Shown here: positions 30,801 through 63,646 of the stretch, in pieces
Layout of the letters: each line of letters starts with the position of its first letter
How positions within the stretch are numbered: the first letter of the stretch is position 1
Assembly (NCBI RefSeq): GCF_026571515.1
Contig: NW_026861690.1
Span: forward strand, 124,001-188,000
Direction: 5' to 3'
DNA: 64,000 nt
From: Ruditapes philippinarum
Lineage: Eukaryota
Made by a program: the position numbers and the translations under genes
Notes under the pieces: generated by a model
Told to the model about the DNA's origin: nothing
The model's input: only the letters and a program-made list of their open reading frames with translations
Database searches by the model: none

Positions 30801-33800
30801 CAAGGTGATTTGGGTGATTTGTAAGTTCACTGTGTTGGAATTTTTTATTTTGGAAGAATGCAGATATGAATAAAAACTGTGAAAAGATAATATGATTTTC
30901 GGATGATTACAGTGTTTCGACTGATGAGATGTTGACTTGAAAACTTGTCAAATGTAAGCATAGAATACAGTGAATGTGTCTTGTATTATGTGGTTATGTT
31001 ACATTAAAGGACTAAGTGGTTAAATTGAAGGAAAAGGGGAATAAGGGGTGGTATTAAGGTTTAAAAGATGCTACAAATTGGACTCAAAATGTAATTTAAA
31101 TGTTAGGAAACATATCTTTTAAAGTTTGCTGTATTATAACATGGCACTGTTTCAGTATTATTTTTTAGCAAACATGCGCAAGGGTTACAAATATACTGAT
31201 GAAACTGCTTGGTCTTAATGTGTCAAAATAGCAACCCACCCAGTGCTTCTGTAATTCACAGACACTCCTGTACTGGTATCATTAATCTCAGTATGTGCTT
31301 TATATCATGGATTCTTCTGTCCAATTCTGATGCCTCCAATGCTTACACAGAATGTTTTACATTTGAGATTATTCTATAAAAAAGCAATGAAATTGATTTT
31401 TCCATTTAACTTTTTGCCTGCTGCCGACAAAAAAAAGCCAGTTGCAGACCAAGATTTTCAGGCACATCTGTGTTGTTTGATTATCAATCTGCACTGTCTG
31501 CTAGTAATTAGTAATTATCTTGAAATTTTCTCTAAAAGTGATAAATGGTTTTGCTGAGATTAGGATTTACATTGTACTTAGATGAGTAAAGATCCTTGTT
31601 GTAAAGTTAAATATCATTCAAATGCACAAGTCCATCTTGAAATCTGGTCATAACTTTTCAGTATTTTTAAGGAGCATTTCAAATTATGTACATTACAGTG
31701 CAGAGATAAAATCATATGGCACTGATATCTACTGACTGATTGTGGTCTGCACTTGTCACAGGGGTACAGTTTGTTGCCACCAGAAGGCTAAGAGTAAAGA
31801 AGATATTAATTATTTAAGAGAATTACGTTAAAAAATGTGACAACAATTTTAAAGGCTTAACTGTGGATACTTTTCATTATCTCAGTTGAAGACTGTTGTA
31901 TTTTGCATTTAAGCAAAGAGATAAGATAAGTACAAAACAAGATACATTTTTATAGATCAGATTTTCTCACCTGTAGTAGTTACAAACTGTGTAGGAGTGG
32001 CAATTAACATCATTGCCAAACTGCCAGGCTCCTACTGTCTTACAGAATTGATCAGGTAAAATACTGAGTTGCTTATCATATTTGATATTTCTACACGATT
32101 GTGAAAAGGATAGGGAATCTTGAGAATTATATGCATTCTATGAGATCTTGGATGCTTAAAATTTTTAAACAAGATAGATAGTTTAATTTCCAGCCCATAA
32201 CAAACATAAAATAAAGTATACACAGATCTTCAACAATTCTTTAAAAAAAAAAAAAAATTAATGTTAGTTTAAATAGGAGATAAATGAAACAAAGTATTGA
32301 CCTTTATTCAAATTCCTTTCTCTGAATCAAATAGCATTGCTAATTTTTAGTATGGATTTTTAAATAAGAACAATTTCCTAATAGTAATATCAATTAAGTC
32401 TTAAGTATTAGCAAGATATTGTGACAGTTTTGTATATTTGGGAAATAGAATATAAAAACCTTAATATTTAGGGGTTTTGGTTGTCTTCATTTATATGAAT
32501 TAAAAGTGTATTGTACAGTTTTTGTGTAACACAAATTATATGGACATACCTACTGAGAGTACTCTAAGCTTACATATGTTAATGTCACTTAACTTCTTAA
32601 ATCATATAGAAATAGCACAACAATTAGCCAGTCAATCAAATGTGTTATGGAAACCAATGAGAACTAGGCTTTGAAGTAAAAGCAAGATGTCAAATGCAAT
32701 TGCAACCATTCCCAATTACTGTAGCTATGAAACATTCAAGACTGGCTTTTCTGAAGGTATAGGAGTATATAGTGAGACTACAACAGCACCTGAAAATGCC
32801 AAATATCCAAACAGAATCAGAGTGTTATACTGGGGAAAAGAGTGGAAAGTAAAAGCTACATTTCTCGTAGATGCAAATAATAATACGAAATGCGTGCCAA
32901 AAAATTTGAAATTGGCAAATAGTTGCGACTGGTTTGATGCATACAGTGTGCAGTATGATGACAAGGCGAAAGATCACATATCATCGTCAGGGGAGGATGT
33001 TGTTGAGGATCATTACCAGGACATTGAAGATGAATTAAACGAGAGAATCATATCTGTTGTGTCAAATTCAGATGATTCGGGATTATCTAGCAGTAGAAAT
33101 AGTACGGCAAAGTCTTGGAGACGGAGGATTGAACGCGAGACTGAAAGCTTTCGATATTCGGCAGAGAAAGGTTGCATTGAGTGGCTTGAGACTGGCAGTA
33201 TTGGACTAAAGAAAACAAACTCAGATCAGGACCTTATTAGGTCATTTGAAGAACAATTCAAACGGAGGAAGTTTGGCGTAAAACTTTCTGATAAGATAAA
33301 ATCTGAAAACGTGACCGTAAATGAAAGTGGAATGTTTCCGGTGTGCCAAACTCATTTACATAGAAAGTTTGGTACGGATAACAGTTTATGTGAGGATGTT
33401 CAGACATTTAATGCAGGGGAGAGTACTCTAGAAGAAGAAGTGTTTGAAGAGGATTTGTACTATCTTGGACCACCAAAGGTATGTTAATTATCTCCCCTTG
33501 TATTTTACTGAAAGGAGAAATTCAATCAAAACTTCAATCAAATCTTATACTTGTTTAAACAAGCAATAGTTTCCTATCTTCAATAGATAAATTTTATTTT
33601 CAGAATATTTCTCACCCTATGTGTTTTTGATTATAAAATCAATTGCATTCAATTTAATACAGGAGTATAATCCTATAGCAATGAAAATTCTCAAGTTTAA
33701 AATTCCATAGTGATTCTTGCTTAGCATTTTTTGCTATCAGCGGTTTATAATCAAGGTAACAATCATTGTTTGAAGTGGACAGGTTTTTGTTAATCTACCC

Positions 33801-42800: not shown

Positions 42801-45800
42801 AAGAAACCCACTCAACATTTTTGCAAACACAAAAACATTGAAAGAATATTTTAACAGCCCATATGTTAGAGTAAATATTTACTCCTGAAAACCTTTCTCA
42901 TTCAGATTTGCTAGACTAAATATTAAGTGAATACCAAGAAAAAAAGGAACGAACAAAAGTTTTTATTAGACCAAATACAGCAGGTATAAAGGACACAATA
43001 TGAAGGACTTTGAAAAATTCCCAGCCAAACTGACAGGTGTTGGATAAAAAGAATGGTGTTCATGGCACAGAGGGAACAAAATGCTGAAAATAATGGCAAA
43101 AATCTGTCTCAAATTGAAGGGGAACAAGTTGACCTTGAGGATATATCAAATGATGTGTTTGACATTGAATCTAATAAAAAGAAATCGAGATATTCCTTTC
43201 CACTTGCCAATAAAATGATGACGATGGAAGGTGATTTTGACGATAGCTTTCAAAGGCCAAGGTCATTCTCCGATGCTTCCATAAGTAGTGGAAGGCATGG
43301 TGTTAAAGTGCTGAATGATATGTTCCATGCTGATGGAAGAACATCTATGAAAGTATTTGTGAGAAGGGAGAGCCATGTGATTTCAAGGGACAAAGAGCTA
43401 ACCAAATCTGCTGTGGCAGAAGATGCCCTTGCAAGAAGACATGACCTTATGTTTGAATCAAAAACTAAAGAAAGGGTATTAAGTTTAGACGATATAAGAA
43501 ATAAAAGTGTAGTAAACGAAGGTGCCCCACCTAAACCAAAGTTGCCATCAAATTACAGAAAGTATTTAAATGAACAGTTAAGGATTTATTATGAAACAAA
43601 TGATAAACGTAGAAACGCTGGCCAGAATTTACAACCTGAATCTGGTGCTAAAACTAACTACACGCAAGGTGCTGATAAATTGGATAAGAGTAGAAATGAT
43701 AATCAAAATGAACAGTCTAAACTTAAAGCTTCCAATTTTGGGACTGAAAAAAGACCACTTGCTGGAAATCTTAAAAGAGGAAGATCATCAGTGTCTGACT
43801 TTGCATCAAGGCCGGTCATTTACAGACATTTTGATCCTGAGTTGCAATCTCAACTATTAAAAAAAGAGCTAGACACATTGAGAATCTCAAGAAATGTTAG
43901 AAAGAAATCAGAGACCATGAAACAGTGGATCGAAAGTGGTTCAAGACCTAAGTCCACTGGTGACCTGCATGTAAGATTTTCAGACGAAATAACTGTGAAA
44001 GAACTTAAAGACTTAGATAAAGACATACAAAAGTATGGGATGAATAAAACACTGCTAAAGCAGTCTAAATCTGTAGATATTCCACAAAAAGTAGATATTT
44101 CACAGAAAGATCACAGAAGCATAGACAATAATGGACAAAGAAAAACTTCCTCAGCATTCCCACCCAGTGGAGCTGCAGGAAGTAGAATGCAAACTCATAA
44201 ACGGGAAACTGTTGATGATAAAAGAGTAGACAATGAAGCAAAGACTTTTCGATCTAGGGAACAGGCTCTCAAACGAGGACAAGCACCTATCAGATCAAAG
44301 TCTGCAACAGCACTGGGAAGAAGCAGGGATGTTTCCAGACAAACAGGAGAACCAACACCATTGGGAGAAAATAAAAATTCTCAACTTTCTAAATCTACAT
44401 CGAACTTGAGAAGGAAACAAAACATTATTACAAAATTCAACTACTCTTCCGTGGAACAAAAGCGAGAAAATGTAAGAGCCAGGTATCAACAAAGTGATAA
44501 ACAAAACAGACTAGATTCATTTTCTCCTGGATTAGATGAAGCAGGTAAAAGGGAATCAGGTGATTTTAAAACAGGTGGTTTACAAAAATTTGATCTCAGA
44601 GATGGTGCTAATACATCTGATCTCAAAGATATGAGAACAATTGGTGATAACAGATCGGATGAAGAAAAATATGCTGCTTTATCAAGAAGTAAAATAGTTC
44701 ATTCAAAGTCTTCATCTTTAGACTCACAGCTTGACCAAAATTCTGGAAGAGTAAGGACCGAATCTGCCGAGTTTAGATACAACAACAACAATCGGCCTAA
44801 GTATGACTCTGTTAATAAACTTGGACCAAATCATATAGCTGATAGAATGAAATTGACATTCAATTTGGATAGAATTGCTCAAAGGTCCAGTAAAACTGTT
44901 GCTCAAAATGTAAATGTACCAAAGTACAAAGACAAGAAAACTATTAGAGAGGAATCTGATCCCTCCTATAGTGATAGTGAATACATAGTGAACAAAGGTG
45001 CTAAAAATGCTCACAATGTGCCAAATTTAGGGTCCAATTCTTCTCAACAAGGGAAGATTGTGTTAAGACAATGTAGGATAGGAGCGGATGTTGTTTTTGG
45101 GCTAGTTGCTGTCCAAGGCGGCACTTCCCAAACAACAGTAGCAGCAGCAACAACATCAACAATTAAACATAAGGTGAGAATAAAAAAAATATGAGAATTG
45201 TTTTAAAAAAGATTAAAATTCTTCTCTCTAATATGAGATTTTAGAAAATTCCATGTTTAATATCTGATTAAATGTATTTGTTCAATAATGTACAGAGGGA
45301 CACCTGAGGTCTTCCTCAGCCAGTAAAGCTGGAAAGCCCCCATAATTTTATGACCTATAATCAGTTTGTGCCTTGTTTAAACCCATTTTTTACCCAATGT
45401 ACAGGATAAGGTATTTTTTAAGGAATTTCTTATTAACCTAATGTGTTAACTTGAAATGGAAATAGTTAGTTAATTTGGTCTGTTAAAAGTATTATGCTTG
45501 TGCGATACCTTTATTTGCCCTATTCTTGATTAATATTCACATTTTGTCTGGCAGCAGCTGTCGCTTAATACGACCGTAACCTTTTGGACTGCTTCTGTTA
45601 AATGACCATCCATATTTGGACTATAAAAAATCTGCAGCTGCTAAATTAATTGTTTGGTTAAAAGGACGTGATGTTACACATCTGACTAGAGATTTATACA
45701 ATTCTTTTTGCACCTAAACATTGTATCCAATGTATGATCATGCATGCATTATACCTTTTAATTTTTCTTTTTCCTTCTACACACTTCAGTCTAAACTTAA

Positions 45801-48800: not shown

Positions 48801-51800
48801 TAGATTAAATTGAAGCCCTCAGCAGCCCTAGGTATGACTCAGGCCTCAGTCAATATTGTTTGCATAGGTAAAGCATTTTTGCCATTGGTGCCAAATTTTT
48901 GAAAAGAAAGTCGAAAACGCTTTTATCAAAAAAAATAAATATTCGAGAAGTAAACATGTAAAGAAAATTGTTACATATATATGTAATGTATATGTCATAC
49001 ATGTACTGCAAGAGTTAATAGATTCATTTTGATTTAGTATCTGTTCTTGACAGCATAGCTTAAGCTTCATGGACTGTGTATGACAGATTGAGTTTTTTTA
49101 TTCCACATCTTGTGTTACATAAAATGCTACAACAGTTTAATTACAGTTGTGTTCAATACTTCAGTATCATGTATTTAAAGCCTGTCTAACCTATAGAATA
49201 ACTTAATACTGTTAAATGAATGTGACATTTAAAAATTATGGTGTGGGAAGTTGTAAAATACTGAATATTTTAACGATAAGTCACCAGTGAATATTAAAAA
49301 AACTTTTGATAAAAGAAAATTTATTGGTAACACACCATTTTATTGTAAATCCTGCAGATTTGTGCAACCTTTCATTGCATATAATGGGCTAAAATATCCT
49401 TAAAGCAATACGTATTCCTGATAATAGAAAACATATTTTGATGAATATAGAAATGTAAAACATAGAAAATTCTAGGGATTTCTATAAATGCATATGCTGT
49501 TTTTTGCAGTCGAGGTCCAAAAGGCTGTATTAAGTATGGGTAAGAGTTCGTATTAAGACGACCGTAGGGAGTCTTATCGAACTCTTACCTATATAACTGC
49601 AAATCGGCTCTTACAACTCGATATTCAGATAAAAAATAGAAAGTGTCACCTCTTTAATTAAGCAAAAACATTGTTTTTCCCAGCGAGTCACGTACAACAT
49701 GTTTCCTAGTCTACAGGTGGATGGCTGTCAAATTACCTAACTGCTGCAATGTAATTCAAAGTAATTATTTTTATTCACATCTTCATAATTATCTTTGATT
49801 ATTAATGCAGTTCATTCCTATTATATGAAACTTACTTTTTCTAGAAATATTAAAACAGTTCATAAACATTTTATAAGGATATCAAAATGTTACTATGTAA
49901 TCATTTGTCACTTACCAATCCACGTTATTATCTATGTAATAAATTTGAATATATACTCAAATTGCATCAGTGTTATCAGCCTTTTTAGAAACACCTGACC
50001 TGGCTAATTAAAATATGCCAATCACAATTATCACTATCAGCACTGGTCTCTTAATGAAAAAGTGGCTACACTAATTATTGTCGAGTAAGAGCCTATTTGC
50101 AGTTATAAAATCTTAAATCCCAGAGCTTTATTGTTTTCACTATAGATAAGAAGTTAATCACTAGAGAATGACACTCCACGAGATTGATATAGCATTAGTT
50201 CACACGGAAATAGTGGATATCTAAATTGTTTGAAGTTTTTTCTCCATGAATAAAAGTGTGGGAAAGTTCTGTTGTATTTTCTGAGAGCATGTGTCTGTGG
50301 AATTCGCTTAGTAGCAGTATTTTGATGTATTAATCATTGAGGACAATCTGTCAGTTGCCCTAGAAATATTGTTGTATATTTAGTTATTATATTCTGCTGT
50401 AGTGCAATATAGGATAATATAGCCTGAATGAAATGAATACTTGAGGGTGGATATTTGATATTAGTGTTATATAGATCTTGGAATTTATTGAAATACAAGG
50501 CTTGTTTTATCAATTTGTTATTACATGTAATATTGAACACATAAAAAACATATCTAGAATGATACATAATATTATGTGGTACTTCACTTTCAAAAAATGT
50601 CTAAAAAAGCTCAAATTAACAATCAAAATGAAAATTTTTTGAAAAGAAATACAATAAAATGTACTAATTCATGTTAGCAAATAACAAATAAATGTTAAGT
50701 TGAAAATGTAGAATTTTGCATTTTACAAAAAAATCAATATTTGGCTTGTTATTTGAAGTAATGAGTACTGAGATATTACATATTGACTGATTATAATTGA
50801 CACATTATCTTGAATGATCTATACCAACACATTATCTTGGATGATCTATACTGTCACATTATCTTAAATGATCTATACTTTTTGCTCCTGAGGAATTGTT
50901 TTCCAGGTAATAGAGGATTTATTTCTGTCTTTTCTGCATTGTCAATATAACTGGGGTTGGGGGTGGGGGGAATGTAATATAGCTTTGAAATTCATATTTG
51001 TATTATAAGGGGCCAGTCAATGTGGTGATGATGTACTGAATTCTTTTATGAAATAATGGAGAGTGTCCTAAGTTATTGAAGTTTATCTGTAATGTATTCA
51101 GTAGAAGAAGTTTGTTCTGAAGAAGTACACTTATAGATTAGCTTATATGTTAGGTAGAATAATCTACTGTTATGTAGAATAAAGTTATAATTTAGAAGTA
51201 GAATAATTATATACATGTACTGATAAATGCTTTGGCTTTGATCAGAAGAAAGGTGAATTTTGATTCAAAATGTAAGCTTGTGCAAAAAAGGTATTATTGA
51301 GTGAGACTGGAGTTGATTTCTGTCCCATAATTTATGTTGTGTTACAAAAAACAGAAATGAAAAAATCGCCACTGCAGCAGGAATATGATAATAATGATTT
51401 TATTTTTCACATGTAATGGTTATGTGTTAATATAAAGTATATTGAGTTTATTTGTTTGTTTATTTTCAGCCTAATGGCAATGGTTACCTTGATGGACAGG
51501 GTCTGGTTACCAATCCGGATGATCCCCGGATGATCCCAGGTGGCCCAGATTGCTTCCAATGTCAGGTGACGTATCCTCATTAACCCCAACCCAATCTTTA
51601 ATATACCTTCTTTTTTTTTTTTTTTTTTTTTTTTGTTTATGTTTCTTCATATCTATGTCTATTCTTCACAATTCTTGTTATTAGCCTCTTTATTTACCCT
51701 ATAAATTATTTTACTATTTTCCAGCTACGCTTAAGTCATCCGTTCTTAGAACGTCTCTTATTTAATTCTTTATTTTATTTTTATTTTATCTCCTCGCACT

Positions 51801-54800
51801 TCCACCATAGCGGACGCAAAGAACTCTCTCCTCGTATTTGCCTTTTTTGTTTATTATTTATATTTTATCTACAAATCTGAACTCGACTCGCTTCTGTGAA
51901 TTATCTTCATTATTTTTTCCAGCCTTAAAGCATGCATCCTTTTATTTTTCTCATCTTTTAACAACTTTAATCTATTCTCTTAGTATCTTCCTAATTTTAA
52001 TGATCTTTTTTTCTTTAGCTTTCTTCTTTAATTGTATCTATTTTTATTCTTTTTTCTTTTTTCTTAAGTCAGGCTTATTTTTTTCCTATTTTTACTATAT
52101 GTAGAATAGTTTGCATGGTTTCAAAGTGGTTTCGAGTCCTACCAGGGATTTCATGTTCTTTTACATAAAGAGCAGTGATACCAGTTGTTTTCATATTGGT
52201 CTTTGGTTCTACTCTGGTGCCCATGTAATCAGGTTTATCAAGATAAACATGCATTCAGGTGTAATTGAAAGATGTTGTTGGTGCTTCTGTGGTTGAGTGG
52301 TTACCCCTGTTGACTTCAAACCACTTGCCCCTTAACCGCTGTAGGTTAGAATTCTCTCAGGGGCTTTGGATTCTTTCATGTGATGAAACTATCCAGCTGG
52401 CTTACATAACATCGGTGGTTCTTAACTTAGGTGCCCGCATGTGCCTTAAATTATGTATGGAGGGGCACCTGAGGCCATCCTCCACCAGTAAAAGTAAATA
52501 TGACCTTTACTGTGTTGGTGCAAAACCCAACAAAAAAGGAAAAAAAGAAGAGATGATGTCACCTTTATGTAAATGATAATTGTTGTCATGTTTCAAGGTA
52601 GGTTACTAAGCTTCATTCTGAACATTTTACTCTTTTGAACATTATACTTGAGTCTTCATGGCTGAAATCTTTTTATATCTAAATATTGGGAAAAAAGTTG
52701 GGCTAGGCTCAACTTATTCCTATTATGGCAATTCTTGGATAAGGTTTTGCAAAATGCAGTTTCATATCTACTTAACCACTTACGTTTTTTTCTTGGAACA
52801 TCACTAATTTTCTTTTTCAAAACGCAATTGATGGTCAGTATTCAAGAACCATAACTCTTAATCTGGAGATGTAGTTGAATTATTGTCTTTTTGAATAATA
52901 TAGAAAACAATTCAGCTCAACTCTTATTTAACCATCTATAATGCTGTGAATTGTTAGGAGGCTGTCTTGTCAGAAAGCTTTTGTTCATAAAATGATATTG
53001 CAGATGCTTTATGTAAAGTTACATGATATTTTTATATATACACATTTCATATTCTTGTCTGTCTGTAAATGTTTTTGTCTGCACAAAATGTGTAATTAAT
53101 TTTTGTTCACTTGTCAACTTGAAAGGAATTGGTGAAAGAAAGTTACAAAGACTTGATAAGCAATAGATATGGATGATTTTTATATATGATGATTTCAGGG
53201 AGGGGCAGATCAGGGTATGCCTATAATAGTATCACGGGTGGCTCCCAACACTCCAGCGGATAATGCTATACCTCGCCTTAATGAGGGGGACCAGGTGCTT
53301 TTTATAAATGGTCGAGACGTCTCCCAACATACACATGAACAGGTATGTCAGAAATTATTTAACTTATTTGCCTGAATAATTTTAATTTGTCTGTTATGAC
53401 ATCTGATGATCATGATGGTATTGATGATTGATGTTGATGACTGATAATGATGATGATGATGTTGATGATGATGATGATACATTTGGTTTGTTTTATGAGT
53501 CTAACTTTCTCAGGAAATGCTTCCTGAATTGAGGTTATCCAAAACTCATAAAAAAAGAGAAGAAAAAGAAAACTTATCAAATATTGGTTTTTTCCCATCT
53601 TTTTTGTGGGGTACACATTTTTACGGTTACAGCTTCACGATGCCCAGTTGTTGGATGATGAATGTGTTGCTCTTAATTTTGTTCAATAATTTTATCATGT
53701 TGTAACTGTAAAAGTTTGTTTTTACCCCCAGATAAGCTGGGGAAAAACACAAATATTTTTAATTCAGAAGTACTGAATTTCATCCCTGTCTTATTAAATT
53801 CACAAAATTTTATCTTCAATGAAATTATCCAATATTCTCAAGTATACCAAGATAAAACTTATGCATATCTTTTATATATACTACTATAAATATAACTGAA
53901 TAAGTGAAATACCAAAAAAAACCACCCCATTTTTGTGGCCTCCAAGGCAGTGGCAAGTGACGCACCAAGTTTAGGTCACTAGTGTTAATTCTTAAAATAA
54001 AATATAAGTTCTGGACAGCTAGACAGTTAGTAGTTGTACTCGGTTTTCTGTCAGCGTCTAAACATACACAAATATAAGCAATCTGACCTCTTCCTTCACC
54101 ATTGAAAACTAGAAACTGATCATGTGACCTTTTTAAGTTGTCATGTGACTTTGACAGTGATGATGTCATTTAAAAGTAAACAAAAATCTTAAAAAAAATA
54201 TATAAAAGAACAAAATATTACTTACTATTATTTTTCATTTTCTCCATAATTTATTATTATCTAATGTAAGATGAAAATGAATTCTTTTAAAATATGCTGT
54301 TTTAATATGAAATATATATATATTTGTTTCTTTCTCAATAATTTATAATATAATATATGCTGATTTTATCTGAAATTGGTTATTCTTAGGGTTTTTTTTT
54401 GCTTTTTTTTTTTTGACAAATGTTGATAACAATTTAAGAAAATATACCTCCCTTTGCACAGGTTGTCATGTTTATACGTGCCTCTCGTGAAACGCATTCC
54501 GGAGAACTAGTTTTAAAAGTTCGACCGAATGGTAAGTGTGCATGCTGTAAAGTTACTTTCATTTGCTTTTTTTTTCTTTGGTTTTCATTATCGTCTTTTG
54601 TGCCGTTTTTCCTAGGTTGTGCTATTTATAAGACAATCGAGGGAGTCTCGTACGAAGGATCTTAATTTGATAGTTAGACCGAATGGTATGTATTAAAAAT
54701 GTGTTACAAGGAATGGGGTGTTCTTTTTTTTGTTTTTTTTTTATATACTGCATAATAACATCAGGTAATAGTGGTCCATTATTGTATAATATGTGTGATC

Positions 54801-57800
54801 CTAATATATGAATGTTTAAATATTAACATCCCTTATATAGATAGAAGTTATAACACTATTAATATACCTGTATTGTCATATTTTTAATCATGAAAATTTT
54901 TTTTGTGATTTTATTTCTCTATTCTAGGAACTTCTCATAATAGTAAAAAAAAAATAATAATATTAAACAGGCCCAAATGGATAGCAATTTTAGACTGAAA
55001 CTTTGTGTCAGCTCGAAAGTTTAGAATCTTGCAGTGAAATTAGGTCAAGAGTGGGCTGATGGTCAATGCATGAAGACTTAGAATCCGGCATTAAAATTAG
55101 GTCAAGAGTGGGCGCATAGTCATGTTTTTCAAATCTAGTCATTGGATTGAATCCATATATAGTACCAAGGATTTCTCACACACACAAACAAATTCAATGA
55201 CACTTGTCAATTCCAATCCATCAGAAAAGCGTAGACTTGTTTTAGGTTTCTAACTTTTATCCTTGCAGTTGAGCTAAAATGACATACATGTATATTGCTA
55301 TGCTTAGGTAAATTTCAAATTTGAGTTGCTGTCTTAGTTTGATATATTAGACAATAAAATTGAAGTAACCTCAATTTTGGTCTCAGAAAATTCAGAATTT
55401 ACCAAAACCATAATGCAGGATGTTAGGAATCTAATTTTAACATTCTGCTATTCACCTGCTATCAAGTTTATCAGAATTTGAATTCAGTGAAAAATTTTTA
55501 TAAAATTTTGTGATTTCTAGGAATAAGTATATTGAAAGGATAATTACATAAAAAAACTATTTAACAGAATTAGAATCCAAAAATAGAAAATTTAATGGTA
55601 TCTTGTTAATGCATATCAATTTTTCTTCCTTAGTTTTGTTTTCTTTGTTTACTTATTTCATTTGTGTGTACCATCAAATCTAACATGTTTTTTCGTAAGA
55701 CTATATAATATTGCATGTTATATGACACTTAATTATTTTTTGACAAGATGAATTGCATCGTGGTGTATTCATTTTTCAGATGGTTTTTATGGTTTTATAT
55801 TCTGTATTTTATGTTATCAAAAATTACATCTGTACATTGATGCAAGGATTGCCGGTTTCAAAAGAAATAAAAAATTGTTGGTATAAAGTTTCACAAGGGA
55901 AAACTTTAAAATGAGAGCATAATTTTCCTTATGTAATATAAAGTTATAAATATTTTTATGAGAGGGTTGTATTTAAAAAATTGTTGGTTTTGAAGTCTCA
56001 TGATCTGGGACAGGGGGGTGGGGTCTATGGGCTGGCTCTTATCTGAGATATTTAACATAGGGCCTGCTGGGGCTTCTAAGGTCTTGTGCTCGCTGATGCC
56101 TTAAATATTAGATATAGGGGCACCTGGTTTCTTGGGCATGCTCATGTATAAATATAATACAATACAGGGCACCTTGGGGCCTTTGCTATATCATGCCTGA
56201 AATACTTTAAATAGGGGCACCTGGAGTCTATCGGCTGGCTCATGCCTGAAATAGAAAGCATAGGGGACCTGACATCTTGGGCTGGTGTGTACCTCTTATA
56301 TTAAATGGAGAGAAAACAGGGCTTCTTCACCAGTAAAGCCAGATTGGCACCATATGACTTAAGCTGTAAGACTGAAGTTCTTGTGCAGTAGTGAAATGAA
56401 CCAGAAATCTTAAGATTGACTGAATCAGAATGTTAATCCTTAATTAACTCATTTAGTTTGTGGTGTTTAAGATTTTTGAGGTTGGAATCGTAGAAATTTT
56501 GTATTTCACTTTATTGTGGTTTGCAAAGAACTATCCTTTATAACTTTATGGAATTTATTTTAGAACTATCCTTTTGGTGATTCGTATAATAAAAAAACAG
56601 CTCATACATTTAGACAGTGCAGGTATTTAATTACCTGTCTGGTATGTACATACCTTGACTAGCTTTTACAAGATGTGGTATCTTGTTCTATATAGCAGCT
56701 GAGATAATACATTTTTGAAATGAACTTTCAATGAATGGGGGTTAGTTTACAATTTGTCCTTCAAGGATGAAATAATGAATGCATAATATTTTTTTTTATG
56801 TCTGTATCTAGTTACTGGTCATGTACAGCTTATTATTATACATATGTTGCAAATTATCTACCTTTATATTGCAAAAAAATTTAGGGAAAATATTATCATT
56901 TCTTCATTTCTAAATGAAAAAGGAAGAAATTGTTTATGTTTACCTGTTTATTTTTTAGCTTTCCTTTTTTTTCAACTATAGCTAAGTTTGTACAATAATT
57001 ATAATTTATGAATACTTCAGAAAAACAAAAATTGGTGTACCAGATTAAAAAATCTATTCAATTTTATAATAATTTCCTTAATGCATATTTCATTGTATCA
57101 TAGTTTGTAAGTTATAAAATTATTTAGTATATAGATGGTCATATCATATAGGATGGTGTTAAAGATGATGTTAAGATTAAAAAATTACATTTATTTTCAT
57201 GCTTTTGTCAGTATTTGTAGTGTTTTATTCCCTCTCAATTGTCTGCCTCCTATAGCAAACTTTAAATGTTTCAACTTTTGATATGGAAAAAGTTTACCAG
57301 TCATAATTTCATGTTTTACTTTTCGTTTATTTACAGCATATTCAGGTGACAATAATTCAGACAGCTGACGGTTCTGACGGTTCTGATTTATTTTTTGTTT
57401 ATTTTACAACATATTCAGGTGACACTAATTCAGACGGTTCTGATTTATATTTTTTGTTTATTTACAGCGTATTCAGGTGACGATAATTCAGACGAGCCTG
57501 ATTTTGTGTATGATCCTGAAACTCATCAAATATCAAGTGCTACAACAGGAGCCAATGCTTTAGATCTGTCCCTTAAATTATTAGAAGAAAGTTTAGAGAG
57601 TGGTGCGGCACTTGCTCAATTTGAAGTAAGTCTTATTGTAGTTCACCCAGAAGTGATAATGGGGGCAACCTTGGTGGAGTGGTTAAGGTCATCGACTTCA
57701 AACCACTTGCCCCTCACTGTTATATGTTCAAATCCCAACAGATACTTTGGATTCTTTCATTTGAGGATGCTAGCTTACCAAATGTTGGTGGTTCTGCTCA

Positions 57801-60800: not shown

Positions 60801-63646
60801 CTAAATTAATAGAGTGTGGACAGTTTAAATTCCAAATTCCTGTGCCTACCTTTACTGTTGCAAGCCTTGAAAAAATAAATTACCTCCTTCACCTGGAGTA
60901 CTGTTATTTTACAGTACTTGGGAAAAGAAATGTATGTCAGAAAAGAAATGTTTCTATTAGCATACCATGGGATTTACACATATGCAGATACAGAATTAGC
61001 AAGACTTAGTTCTAAATATCAATTAGGGAAAAGAATGCTTTTATAAATGTTCTTTTATGATGGAATGTTCTTTTAGTATGTGGTATATTGAAAACAGTTA
61101 AACGTTTTGAAATGGGTGTTACTGAACATCATAATTACACTGTAGGAATGCTTGTGGATTTTTGTGATCTCAGAAGTTTTGTAATGGGGCATGTGCACAA
61201 AATATCTTCTTCCCTTTCCATAGCACTAATCTTGTCTTCTAAGTTTAACAAAACAAAATTTGATGAAATGATATGACATGAATGTAAGGATATGCTTTAT
61301 GTAACAGCTTTTTGATAAAAATCTTCCAAGAATATTGTAGTGGATGTAAAAGGTCAAAGTTGAATAATTTACTATTATGTCAAGAGCATTTAAAAAGTTA
61401 TGTGAGTAGGAATCCCTCCAGGTAAGTTGATATGTGTTGATTTCTTCAAGGTATCTAGCTTTGTTCTGTGGATCTTGTCTGGTGGTTTACCTGTAGGTTA
61501 GACTCCTTTAAAACTCAATTTTTAACCCAAGGCAATGAAGATTTGACCTTATACACCAAAGGCAAAAAAATGAATGGGTCAATAAATGGAGATTGTTTTT
61601 ATTTACAGATGGAAATCCCAGTATCTGGAATATTGAACCGATATATAGCCGCTCAGGGTCCTTTGCCAACTACGTGTATAGACTTTTGGCAGATGATCTG
61701 GGAACAACAATCTACACTAGTCGTTATGCTTACTACCAAGGTATACATCTTATATCTAGATATTTGAGCTGTGCCATGACAAAACCAACATATGGTCTGG
61801 ATCCATGCTGGTCGCAAACGCATTATGTTGGTTTTGTCATGGCACGGCTCATTTTATTATCTAATTCATTAATGATATATGCTTTTTATAACATTTATCA
61901 CATGCATGTAGATTCTTCGTTAATGAGTGTGTTTATGAATGCTCCATTGTATGATACAACAATTTATTTGAACTTGAATTTATCTTTTCCTGTGAATTTA
62001 TTTGTATAGTTCTGCGATAATGAAATTACAACACTTTATGAGATCAAAAGTGACCTCTCTAGCCTAACTAACATAACAGTAAATATCTCGGGCTTAATCT
62101 TTACATATTTTTGTATCATCAGGTGGAGCGAGGTCGTATAAAATGTCACCAGTACTGGCCTGACCTGTACGAGACTTCAGACTTTGGCCCTCTACAGATC
62201 ACATGTGTTAAAGAGGAGGAGTCAGCCTCATTTGCATTTAGGGAATTTAACTTGACTCATGTGGAGGTAAGTCATTGGAAAGGGATATTCTCTTGATATC
62301 TTGAATGGGGGCATTGTATCAGTAGCTTGAGAAATAGCTTGAGAATAAGGAATAACAGATACTTCCCTTAACAAGGAGATACTTAAATAATATATACCTT
62401 TGTTCAATAAAATGGATAAATAACTTAAATCTTTTCTTCAACAATTCATTTCCAAACACTATATTTATTTAATACCGTTCCTTTTACGTGCTAAATTTGG
62501 CGTCTATCAACTTACACGTCTGTTTTGTATGTTTATGTCATTTCCTTTGTTATTTATCATATCAACTCACTGATGAAGTTTAATAAAGAGAAACATGTTA
62601 TAATAAACTTAGTTGGTTTGTGATCTTTTTATCATATTATACAAACCATGACAATTTATAATTTTAAGAGGGAACATATTTTGTTTCACTTCCGTAAAAT
62701 TGAAAAGCAAGGGCGTCAAACTTTTGTGAATGGTAATGAGTATTTTATGTGTGTAGTTTTAGTTGGTATTGATAAATAGAGTCTACCTGCTATTAAAATA
62801 TTAAGTTGTTATTAACATAAATTTTAGTGAACAACTAACTTCTTATTATTGACTTCAGCATAAGTTTTAGTAACCATCAAACATATTATTATTGTGTTTA
62901 TTACAGTCGGCGGAGGAGCGACATATATCTCACATGCAGTATATAGCATGGCCGGATCACGGTGTACCAGATGATCCGGCCGATTTCCTCGATTTTGTAC
63001 AGAAAGTACGGCAAAAACGGGTCGGTCTAGTAGAACCATCAATAGTCCATTGTAGGTAAGTGGTCGTTGATTTATAGGTGAATTGTTTTTTTCCAGAGCT
63101 CACTTTGTTATTGTCATAGTCATTTACTAGGGAGACAGTGCCTTTGGGTTCGAACTTAAGATCATTGAAAGTGTAAATAGTATGAAGGTTCTACATGTAA
63201 TACATGGTCTTAACCTTAGTTATTTTAGAGCATTGTATTTCAGTAGAGTTTGATGGTAATTTGAGAGGTTTAGTCAGGTGTTAATTTTATCCAAGATGTT
63301 CAGATTGTTAAATTAAACATTACTTACAATACTCAGGCTTTAAACTCATAAATACTTACAAACAGTATTTAACCAAGTTTGTAGCATTTTTTGTTTGTTT
63401 TTCTTATGGTTTTGTTTTTTAATGCTGCAAAATACTTTTAAAAAAAATATAAAACCAAATCTTATTTTTATAGAATTTAATGTGTTAACACTGTAACTAT
63501 CTGTTTACAGTGCTGGTATTGGTAGAACAGGTGTTTTAATCACCATGGAAACAGCCATGTGTCTTATAGAAGCTAATCAACCAGTATATCCATTGTCTAT
63601 AGTTAGGCAAATGAGAGACCAGAGAGCGATGTTAATACAGACTCCG
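27740..63646 (+). CDS. PTPN4: Multi-exon PTPN3/PTPN4 (PTP-MEG)-like non-receptor tyrosine phosphatase, partial (linker, PDZ and PTP domain; FERM exons upstream and last exon downstream of the window)
   Basis: Manual splicing at GT-AG sites gives a phase-consistent ORF. It contains a PDZ domain ([21 protein letters not shown]...[16 protein letters not shown]...[13 protein letters not shown]...VRPN) followed by a classical PTP domain ([59 protein letters not shown]). This order is characteristic of the PTPN3/PTPN4/Ptpmeg family. Confidence 0.93.
27890..28330 (+). repeat. Degenerate ~37-40-bp tandem repeat beginning at the exon 27740-27899 donor
   Basis: Unit tgtatc(g/a)taagtactgaaattgtatttcatagaaatg repeated ~10 times. 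Confidence 0.8.
28399..28582. mobile_element. Same palindromic MITE family, internally deleted
   Basis: Shared arms. Confidence 0.8.
29560..29880 (+). promoter_or_regulatory. Candidate intronic promoter/enhancer (perfect CRE TGACGTCA 29598-29605, E-box CAGCTG, inverted CCAAT 29839-29843)
   Basis: Motif cluster in non-repetitive sequence ~2.8 kb upstream of the 264-aa exon; motif evidence only. Confidence 0.3.
32687..33478 (+). CDS. Putative alternative first coding exon (264 aa novel N-terminus) of the phosphatase
   Basis: A 266-aa ORF in AT-rich intron with an in-frame TGA (32672-32674) just upstream of the ATG. It ends at AAG|gtatgt in phase 0, two codons before the stop, which is compatible with the acceptor at 51470. 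Confidence 0.65.
34300..34560. repeat. 60-bp tandem repeat, ~4 copies
   Basis: The segments starting at 34321, 34381 and 34441 are nearly identical. Confidence 0.93.
35101..35768. repeat. 15-bp minisatellite (ggtgttcacagtaat / ggtgttcacattaaa), ~44 units with a 45-bp higher-order pattern
   Basis: Directly visible; it explains the repetitive ORFs in three frames. Confidence 0.97.
37760..37830 (+). promoter_or_regulatory. Candidate intronic promoter (two inverted CCAAT boxes at 37772 and 37813 flanking an ETS core)
   Basis: gattggg and gattggctg lie 41 bp apart with ttcctg between them, upstream of the 707-aa exon; motif evidence only. Confidence 0.3.
41907..42277. mobile_element. Same palindromic MITE family, carrying a nested 136-bp insertion
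   Basis: Same arms as 16163; insert at 42051-42186. Confidence 0.85.
43053..45173 (+). CDS. Putative large alternative first coding exon (707 aa, K/R/S/D-rich, probably disordered)
   Basis: An uninterrupted 713-aa ORF with an in-frame TGA at 43011-43013 upstream. It ends at AAG|gtgaga in phase 0 shortly before the stop and has no transposase or reverse-transcriptase motifs. Confidence 0.72.
46460..46900. repeat. 51-bp tandem repeat, ~8 copies
   Basis: catgaactatttttgtaatggtaagactgatagtgaataacagcaactgca at 46570, 46621 and 46672, plus degenerate flanking copies. Confidence 0.92.
49592..50107. mobile_element. ~516-bp MITE with ~28-bp terminal inverted repeats
   Basis: tataactgcaaatcggctcttacaactcg ... 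cgagtaagagcctatttgcagttata. Confidence 0.72.
50800..50878. repeat. ~27-bp tandem repeat x3 (cacattatcttgaatgatctatac)
   Basis: Directly visible. Confidence 0.8.
51470..51565 (+). CDS. PTPN4: First PDZ exon ([14 protein letters not shown]... then frameshift-scrambled IRMIPDD..FNV)
   Basis: Acceptor tattttcag and donor CAG|gtgacg. The expected PDZ betaA/betaB sequence (IRMxPD..GRFGFNVK) is recognisable only by switching frames. Confidence 0.7.
52278..52545 (+). mobile_element. SINE, same family as 60389 (partial second copy at ~52120-52225)
   Basis: Shared head and core sequence. Confidence 0.78.
53199..53342 (+). CDS. PTPN4: PDZ exon [48 protein letters not shown]
   Basis: ttcag acceptor, CAG|gtatgt donor, 144 nt, phase 0-0, clear PTPN3/4-type PDZ sequence. 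Confidence 0.95.
53405..53478. repeat. (GAT)n microsatellite
   Basis: Directly visible. Confidence 0.85.
54462..54531 (+). CDS. PTPN4: PDZ C-terminal exon variant A: [23 protein letters not shown]
   Basis: tttgcacag acceptor, G|gtaagt donor, 70 nt, phase 0-1. Confidence 0.93.
54616..54685 (+). CDS. PTPN4: PDZ C-terminal exon variant B (duplicated, likely mutually exclusive): [23 protein letters not shown]
   Basis: Long pyrimidine tract plus cctag acceptor and G|gtatgt donor. Same length (70 nt) and phase as variant A, with 14/23 identical residues. Confidence 0.85.
57468..57625 (+). CDS. PTPN4: PDZ-PTP linker exon (A)[17 protein letters not shown]...[11 protein letters not shown]
   Basis: tttacag acceptor, GAA|gtaagt donor, 158 nt, phase 1-0. 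Confidence 0.9.
57660..58110 (+). mobile_element. SINE copy of the same family, interrupted by a ~21-bp tandem expansion (57860-58005)
   Basis: Shared head, core and 3' end; internal repeats of cttatgagaggtctgtggtt. Confidence 0.7.
58703..58793 (+). CDS. PTPN4: PTP exon [30 protein letters not shown](Y)
   Basis: ttttcag / gtaagt splice sites; KNRY pTyr-recognition loop. Confidence 0.95.
59653..59720 (+). CDS. PTPN4: PTP exon (Y)[22 protein letters not shown]
   Basis: ttcacag / gtaagt splice sites; DYINAN motif. Confidence 0.95.
60389..60680 (+). mobile_element. tRNA-derived SINE, second family (near full-length copy)
   Basis: tRNA-like head, core attctttcatgtgaggaagctatcca...ggtggttctactcaggtg...ggcacctaaggtcttcctcca...atatgacctatactgtgttggtg, and an A-rich tail. 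The same core recurs elsewhere in the window. Confidence 0.8.
61609..61740 (+). CDS. PTPN4: PTP exon [44 protein letters not shown]
   Basis: tttacag / gtatac splice sites; YIAAQGP and DFWQM motifs. Confidence 0.95.
61765..61851. mobile_element. Same palindromic MITE family, collapsed 87-bp copy in a short PTP intron
   Basis: Both termini are retained and the centre is deleted. Confidence 0.8.
62123..62266 (+). CDS. PTPN4: PTP exon [16 protein letters not shown]...[10 protein letters not shown]
   Basis: catcag / gtaagt splice sites; KCxxYWP motif. Confidence 0.95.
62907..63055 (+). CDS. PTPN4: PTP exon [49 protein letters not shown](S)
   Basis: ttacag / gtaagt splice sites; WPD loop and catalytic HC. 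Confidence 0.96.
63511..63646 (+). CDS. PTPN4: PTP exon (S)[45 protein letters not shown]
   Basis: tttacag / gtatgt splice sites; completes the [11 protein letters not shown]-loop and the Q-loop. Confidence 0.96.

What the first reader, a model, noticed from the sequence alone, without database searches (positions are those of the whole stretch)
54532..54615. 84-nt inter-exon intron carries an RBFOX motif and a long AG-free pyrimidine tract: a candidate exclusion and switch mechanism
Seen: TGCATG at 54539-54544, directly after the exon A donor, then ~60 nt with no AG and strong T/C richness up to the exon B acceptor. Known: RBFOX binds UGCAUG, promoting an exon when bound downstream and repressing it when bound upstream. 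A branch point too close to the upstream donor sterically enforces mutual exclusion (alpha-tropomyosin model). Inference: one site could favour A and repress B in muscle or neurons, and a distant branch point could prevent A-B joining.
Basis: partly seen in the sequence, partly recalled or inferred. Interest (0 to 1): 0.7.

Follow-up and report, generated by a model that had tools for sequence, protein, structure and literature searches.

The report
Clam phosphatase exon-swap switch intron
This 84-base intron separates two duplicate exons of a clam signalling phosphatase gene (PTPN3/4) that are each spliced in on their own, and its short length, a likely conserved RBFOX-type motif and a predicted RNA hairpin likely govern the choice, which makes it a new example of a well-known kind of splicing switch.

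Summary
The intron is 54532-54615 (84 nt), TGCATG lies at +8 to +13, and 61 nt are AG-free. The flanking 70-nt exons are alternative ends of the PDZ domain of PTPN3/4.

RNA-like contigs join A alone (3 of 4 runs) or B alone (4 of 4) to both neighbours. No A-B joint is listed, but 31 joints were hidden. B-type proteins were seen only in Mercenaria, Mya and Dreissena.

The AG-free zone is ordinary here: 4 of 23 other acceptors match it. The pyrimidine content (82%) and the short length are not ordinary. Read-through translations of orthologous introns force TGCAYG at +10 in one relative, allow TGCATG in a second, and exclude it near the donor in two others.

Tissue specificity, RBFOX binding and the real branch point are untested. 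Verdict: new member of a known kind.

The parts
53197..53342 (+). Upstream constitutive exon (PDZ core, ends HTHEQ); start approximate because the preceding exon is garbled in the assembly
   Evidence: PTPN4/PTPN3 PDZ match E 8e-20; donor used in contigs
54462..54531 (+). Exon A, 70 nt, ancestral type, [23 protein letters not shown]
   Evidence: Joints up-A and A-next in 3 of 4 runs; 22-23 of 23 residues shared with Mercenaria, Mya, Mactra, Mytilus, Lineus
54532..54615 (+). Intervening intron, 84 nt
   Evidence: Sequence; shortest of 24 introns of the gene
54539..54544 (+). TGCATG, RBFOX-type motif at +8 to +13
   Evidence: TGCAYG forced at +10 in P0187, TGCATG allowed at +10 in P0186
54556..54575 (+). 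Distant branch-point candidate (A 54561, +30/-55) followed by a U9 tract
   Evidence: 4 of 5 YNYURAY positions; 4-codon match to P0187 not significant, p 0.10; unmapped
54586..54615 (+). Conserved 3' block with normal-distance branch candidates (A 54587, -29; A 54590, -26), pyrimidine tract and TAG acceptor
   Evidence: 25 of 30 nt compatible with P0186 and with P0187, against 12-19 for 23 other acceptors and 0 of 20,000 shuffles; P0189 not significant
54577..54683 (+). Predicted long hairpin pairing the intron's last 39 nt with exon B
   Evidence: -34.2 kcal/mol, z -3.5; lowest of 24 acceptors, 1 of 300 segregated shuffles; 37 of 1500 synonymous recodings
54616..54685 (+). Exon B, 70 nt, derived duplicate, [23 protein letters not shown]
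   Evidence: Joints up-B and B-next in 4 of 4 runs; 43 of 70 nt and 14 of 23 residues identical to A
57468..57625 (+). Downstream common exon (PDZ-PTP linker)

Best explanation
The intron lies between two 70-nt duplicate exons of clam PTPN3/4 that are each spliced in singly, and double inclusion is likely prevented by several layers together rather than by one site. Shown: single use of A or of B, a duplicate seen only in venerid and myid clams, a short intron, and frameshift stops if both or neither exon is used. Inferred: A-to-B splicing is inefficient because the intron is unusually short for this genome and U2 likely uses the +30 branch site beside the U9 tract, helped by a predicted hairpin that buries the -29/-26 sites and B's acceptor. 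Any leak would be removed by nonsense-mediated decay. The UGCAUG next to A's donor likely binds an RBFOX protein and shifts the A/B ratio between cell types; favouring A is the likelier direction but is not shown. The swap keeps the predicted ligand-contacting helix residues and changes the helix end, loop and last strand of the PDZ domain, so it would tune partners or autoinhibition rather than change ligand class.
For: Joints up-A 3 of 4, A-next 3 of 4, up-B 4 of 4, B-next 4 of 4; no A-B or skip joint among the 15 listed. 13 of 154 long homologues are B-type, all Mercenaria, Mya or Dreissena; RefSeq has A and B isoform pairs in Mercenaria (P0004/P0121) and Mya (P0130/P0008). The A-B join stops at nt 120 of 140, and skipping both stops after 31 codons. 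Orthologous introns are 89, 107 and 78 nt. TGCAYG is forced in P0187 (null 0.0004); 2 of 22 control donors allow GCATG. Hairpin statistics. Contig depths of A against B differ between runs: 122/87 v 107/66, 6/6 v 17/5, none v 229/202, 44/44 v 117/84 (a weak measure). Precedent: 14 of 19 non-3n C. elegans clusters depend on NMD and 11 of 29 carry UGCAUG (PMC4165533, passages).
Against: 31 joints were not shown and contigs drop rare forms, so absence of A-B mRNA is not proven. AG-free length is ordinary. The best-conserved intron block holds the normal-distance branch candidates, which would be +56, +61 and +79 from the donor in the window, P0186 and P0187, above a 50-nt threshold. The hexamer is excluded near the donor in Mya (only GCATG possible, prior 0.05) and in P0189. 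P0186 and P0187 are close relatives of each other, so they count as one lineage. 4 of 39 hairpin pairs are impossible in each of them. B is the stronger form in 3 of 4 contig sets, so the hairpin is no strict silencer. No tissue labels were available.
Confidence: 0.5

Rival explanations
1. NMD-only exclusion: the intron uses the normal-distance branch point (-29/-26), A-B joined RNA is made and degraded, and exon choice follows splice-site strength and factors binding the conserved 3' block.
For: Both exons are 3n+1 and joining gives a stop. The strongest conservation is the last 30 nt. 377 of 629 human MXE clusters are non-3n and only 57 are steric candidates (PMC5740500, passages).
Against: It does not explain why the intron stays 78-107 nt in four lineages while the gene's others are 382 nt or more, nor the U9 tract lying 40 nt upstream of the acceptor.
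Confidence: 0.25
2. One reading: one RBFOX site promotes A and represses B in muscle or neurons, and a distant branch point alone enforces exclusion, as in alpha-tropomyosin or OGDH.
For: Branch candidate at +30 before U9, 9 nt after the last AG; motif recurrence in P0187 and P0186; OGDH distant branch points lie 25-41 nt from the donor and restrict intron size (PMC7969005, passages).
Against: AG-free length is ordinary; the distant block is not significantly conserved (p 0.10, 1.0, 0.86); the motif is missing near the donor in 2 of 4 translated relatives; no tissue data.
Confidence: 0.15
3. The MXE pair is real but TGCATG is incidental, and the site at +8 either does nothing or hinders A's donor.
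For: The motif is at chance frequency genome-locally; outgroup locus L006 has one about 50 nt after the same donor with no duplicate exon; motif choice was post hoc.
Against: TGCAYG is forced within 2 nt of the same position in P0187 (null 0.0004; compatible at that position 0.008).
Confidence: 0.1

Closest known systems
Distant-branch-point MXE pairs: alpha-tropomyosin exons 2/3 (cited in PMC1431707; exon numbers recalled) and OGDH exons 4a/4b (PMC7969005)
   Same: Duplicated exon pair, size-restricted U-rich intervening intron, branch candidate under 50 nt from the upstream donor.
   Different: The AG-free zone is only 61 nt (the human study treats 100 nt or more as enriched, and 80 or more as likely to include many cases); a competing normal-distance site is conserved; the branch point is unmapped.
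RBFOX-regulated MXEs of C. elegans: egl-15 5B/5A and unc-32 7a/7b (PMC4165533, PMC3585155)
   Same: Invertebrate homologous exon pair with a UGCAUG in a flanking intron.
   Different: There the working site is upstream of the first exon (egl-15) or downstream of the second (unc-32). Here it is in the intervening intron, 8 nt from the donor, and binding is untested.
NMD-enforced non-3n MXE clusters (PMC4165533, PMC5740500)
   Same: Equal 3n+1 exons; double inclusion or double skipping gives a premature stop.
   Different: No NMD-block data for this gene.
Dscam exon 17 (steric hindrance plus RNA structure; only the title was seen, in a reference list)
   Same: Two-exon cluster with a possible combination of short spacing and secondary structure.
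   Different: Paper not readable here; the clam hairpin is only predicted.
Human PTPN4/PTPN3 PDZ-linker-PTP regulation (PMC5554198, PMC10185773)
   Same: Orthologous domain; the exons encode the end of helix alpha-2, the last strand and the start of the linker.
   Different: Vertebrate, pteriomorph, unionid and gastropod homologues seen here have only the A-type segment.

Membership tests
Mutually exclusive homologous exon pair | Same length, phase and homologous sequence | tested here: met
   70 nt each, same phase, 43 of 70 nt identical
Mutually exclusive homologous exon pair | Each exon joined singly to both common neighbours | tested here: met
   A in 3 of 4, B in 4 of 4 runs; RefSeq A and B isoforms in Mercenaria and Mya
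Mutually exclusive homologous exon pair | No stable double-inclusion mRNA | tested here: inconclusive
   No A-B joint among 15 listed, 31 hidden; contigs drop rare forms; raw reads too few
Distant-branch-point steric MXE | Used branch point under about 50 nt from the upstream donor | not testable with these tools
   Candidates at +30 and +56 score alike; no lariat data
Distant-branch-point steric MXE | Unusually long AG exclusion zone | tested here: not met
   61 nt; 4 of 23 other acceptors are longer
Distant-branch-point steric MXE | Intervening intron kept short and pyrimidine-rich | tested here: met
   84, 89, 107, 78 nt; pyrimidine 0.82, highest of 24
RBFOX-regulated exon | Conserved (U)GCAUG near the exon | tested here: inconclusive
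   Forced TGCAYG in P0187, allowed in P0186, hexamer excluded near the donor in Mya and P0189; peptide-level only
RBFOX-regulated exon | RBFOX binds and changes inclusion | not testable with these tools
   No binding or knockdown data; the search for an RBFOX gene was uninformative because the controls were also blank
NMD-enforced MXE | Double inclusion or skipping creates a premature stop well before the last junction | tested here: met
   Stops in exon B and in the next exon; eight more introns follow exon B's downstream exon
Structure-controlled MXE | Conserved pairing with compensatory changes | tested here: inconclusive
   Strong in this species; the peptide-level test has no power, own sequence 13 of 60

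The most novel reading that the evidence does not exclude
A complete switch packed into 224 nt: a hairpin between the intron's 3' half and exon B hides the normal branch point, forces lariat formation at +30 where it clashes with exon A's donor, and RBFOX bound at +8 flips the pair. Structure would thereby create the steric exclusion, and the switch would tune PDZ control of the phosphatase in clams only.
Probability: 0.15. Interest if true: 0.6.

Novelty: new member of a known kind. Interest (0 to 1): 0.36.

Why it matters
It gives a very compact, clam-restricted mutually exclusive exon pair in which four known devices (short intron, frameshift, RBFOX-type site, hairpin) can be separated in one small minigene. 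It also gives a natural variant of an otherwise almost invariant PDZ segment of PTPN3/4. The isoforms are already present in RefSeq models, and each device is known from other genes, so the surprise is modest.

Tried and rejected
Raw-read lay: 53, 52, 3 and 7 reads laid, no joints. X21 and X22 show many loose ends at GATC, so they are probably proximity-ligation DNA despite the RNA label (inference); nothing was drawn from them. No listed holder was on record as RNA; the four contig runs are treated as RNA because they join across GT-AG introns.

Orthologous intron DNA was not obtained. The metagenome scan gave 5 loci, none with an exon B; its pattern required a residue that P0186/P0187 lack. 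Viral and prokaryote collections gave 0. Conservation therefore rests on translations only.

RBFOX gene search with PF12414 was blank with blank controls. A 5' hairpin pairing A's donor with +29 to +35 is not significant (z -1.3). Sampled back-translations of P0186 and P0187 showed no folding advantage (45 of 60, 22 of 60), but the same test fails on the window's own sequence (13 of 60). No convincing docker-selector repeat was found; the inverted repeats listed are A/T-rich (25 of 114 shown). Three A-type read-throughs with the clam-like lysine (P0193, P0219, P0225) show no exon B within their open frame and no near-donor GCATG (P0193 computed; the others read by eye). They may lack the duplicate or have a longer intron.

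The Mya row matched the wrong stretch and was redone. Earlier scan findings gave nothing on this locus. No description of this exon pair was found in paper searches; the library lacks most subscription journals. No supplements were read.

Full report
Gene. The exon upstream of the pair matches the PDZ domain of human PTPN4 and PTPN3 (E 8e-20). The window's exons reproduce named Ruditapes philippinarum proteins P0085 and P0126 at or near 100%, so this is the PTPN3/4 (PTP-MEG) gene of a venerid clam. I mapped 23 introns by spliced translation. Two junctions around one FERM-side exon and the garbled junction before the PDZ exon were left out.

Observation. The intron is 54532-54615, with TGCATG at +8 to +13 and no AG for 61 nt. 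TGCATG is at chance level in the window (37 against 40.2). Its chance of falling in an 84-nt intron is about 0.026, or 0.004 in the first 20 nt, and none of the 23 other donors has it within 100 nt. The AG-free length is matched by 4 of 23 other acceptors. The pyrimidine fraction (0.82) is the highest of 24, and the length is by far the shortest. A rough sample of 63 myosin introns gave 62 of 125 nt or more and one doubtful 30.

Mutual exclusion. Four of the 24 runs listed were laid as contigs (four studies). Up-A and A-next joints appear in 3 of 4, up-B and B-next in 4 of 4. No A-B or skip joint is among the 15 listed; 31 were not shown. Contig depths suggest that the ratio varies, from about equal to B only, but this is a weak measure without tissue labels. 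Four raw-read runs gave too few reads and no joints.

Distribution. Of 154 homologues of 370 residues or more, 13 carry a B-type segment, all from Mercenaria, Mya or Dreissena. RefSeq has both forms in Mercenaria and Mya, and one Mya model holds A then B in tandem. The 45 listed cluster members of mussels, oysters and scallops, and the three unionid proteins that cover the site, are all A-type; only 15 of 44, 46 and 27 members were listed. Five metagenome loci of other animals have a single exon. A is nearly invariant (22-23 of 23 residues) and B drifts (18-21 of 23). The ligand contacts named for PTPN3, H572, D573 and K580 (PMC10185773, passages), correspond by my alignment to H and E in the constant exon and R in both A and B, so ligand class is predicted to be unchanged. 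In PTPN4 the PDZ domain and the linker that follows regulate the catalytic domain (PMC5554198, passages).

Conservation of the intron. No orthologous DNA could be fetched. Gene callers, however, had read through the intron in unnamed relatives, giving lengths of 89 (P0186), 107 (P0187, also P0188 and P0218) and 78 nt (P0189). The codons of P0187 force TGCAYG at +10 (null 0.0004 within the first 20 nt), and P0186 allows TGCATG at the same place (0.25). Two of 22 control donors allow GCATG. Against this, the Mya model allows only GCATG at +10 (prior 0.05) and P0189 only at +38, and P0186 and P0187 are near relatives. The last 30 nt are strongly conserved with P0186 and P0187 (25 of 30 compatible; others 12-19; 0 of 20,000 shuffles) but not with P0189 (p 0.18).

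Branch point. Two candidates score alike: A 54561 (+30, before a U9 tract and 9 nt after the last AG) and A 54587 (+56, -29, in the conserved block). The steric threshold in the literature is about 50 nt (PMC7969005 and PMC5740500, passages); none is known to me for molluscs. The +30 block matches P0187 over four codons, which is not significant (p 0.10). The distant-branch model is therefore possible but not shown.

First, both exons are 3n+1. Joining them stops at nt 120 of 140, and skipping both stops after 31 codons, so NMD would hide any leak, as in 14 of 19 such C. elegans clusters (PMC4165533, passages). Second, the last 39 intron nt are predicted to pair with exon B (-34.2 kcal/mol, z -3.5). 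This is the lowest of 24 acceptors, reached by 1 of 300 shuffles that keep intron and exon apart and by 37 of 1500 synonymous recodings. It buries the -29/-26 sites and the acceptor and starts just after the U9 tract. Four of 39 pairs are impossible in each of P0186 and P0187, although the register is the best of 13 tried, as expected from sequence similarity. The peptide-level folding test has no power.

Mechanism and verdict. The pair itself is close to certain (about 0.95). I put a selected RBFOX-type site at about 0.6, use of the +30 branch point at about 0.45, a functional hairpin at about 0.4, and the layered model as a whole at 0.5. RBFOX control of invertebrate MXEs is known from egl-15 and unc-32 (PMC3585155 and PMC4165533, passages). 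AG-exclusion-zone background is from PMC1431707 (passages), and PMC7404189 was seen as passages. PMC12021676 gave nothing usable. That GCACG is a secondary RBFOX motif, and the clade names, are recalled. No paper on this exon pair was found. It is a new member of a known kind.

Noticed in passing
window 57320-57470: Three tandem copies of the acceptor and first bases of the downstream exon. The first copy keeps its AG (exon would start at 57337) and leads to a stop after about nine codons; the second has lost the AG.
   Followed up: partly
window 51500-51580: The exon before the PDZ core looks garbled in the assembly. All four contig sets join 51512 to 53197 with unknown letters between, and the named protein model ends there, so the gene is split in two records.
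   Followed up: partly
window 54656-57467: In 4 of 4 runs a contig starts at 54656 and runs into the intron after exon B, and that intron is covered at depth about 5-16 while some other introns are near zero. This may be slow removal of the intron after B.
   Followed up: no
window 43053-45131: Large exon of about 690 codons matching the N-terminus of Mercenaria isoform X1, apparently an alternative start that gives a FERM-less phosphatase; Mya has a similar isoform.
   Followed up: partly
window 32675-33484: 270-codon open frame on the + strand inside a long intron, not matched by the five homologues tried; possibly another alternative first exon.
   Followed up: no
G000:C10177 near 101240 (L016): One FERM-side intron of the gene appears to use a GC donor.
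   Followed up: no
L002, L004, L006: Other animals have lost the intron after exon A (L002, L004) or the one before it (L006), so intron positions around this exon vary.
   Followed up: no
window 62860-62980: The acceptor at 62907 also folds more strongly than its shuffles (z -2.3; 3 of 60 segregated shuffles), a reminder that such hairpins occur at constitutive exons.
   Followed up: no
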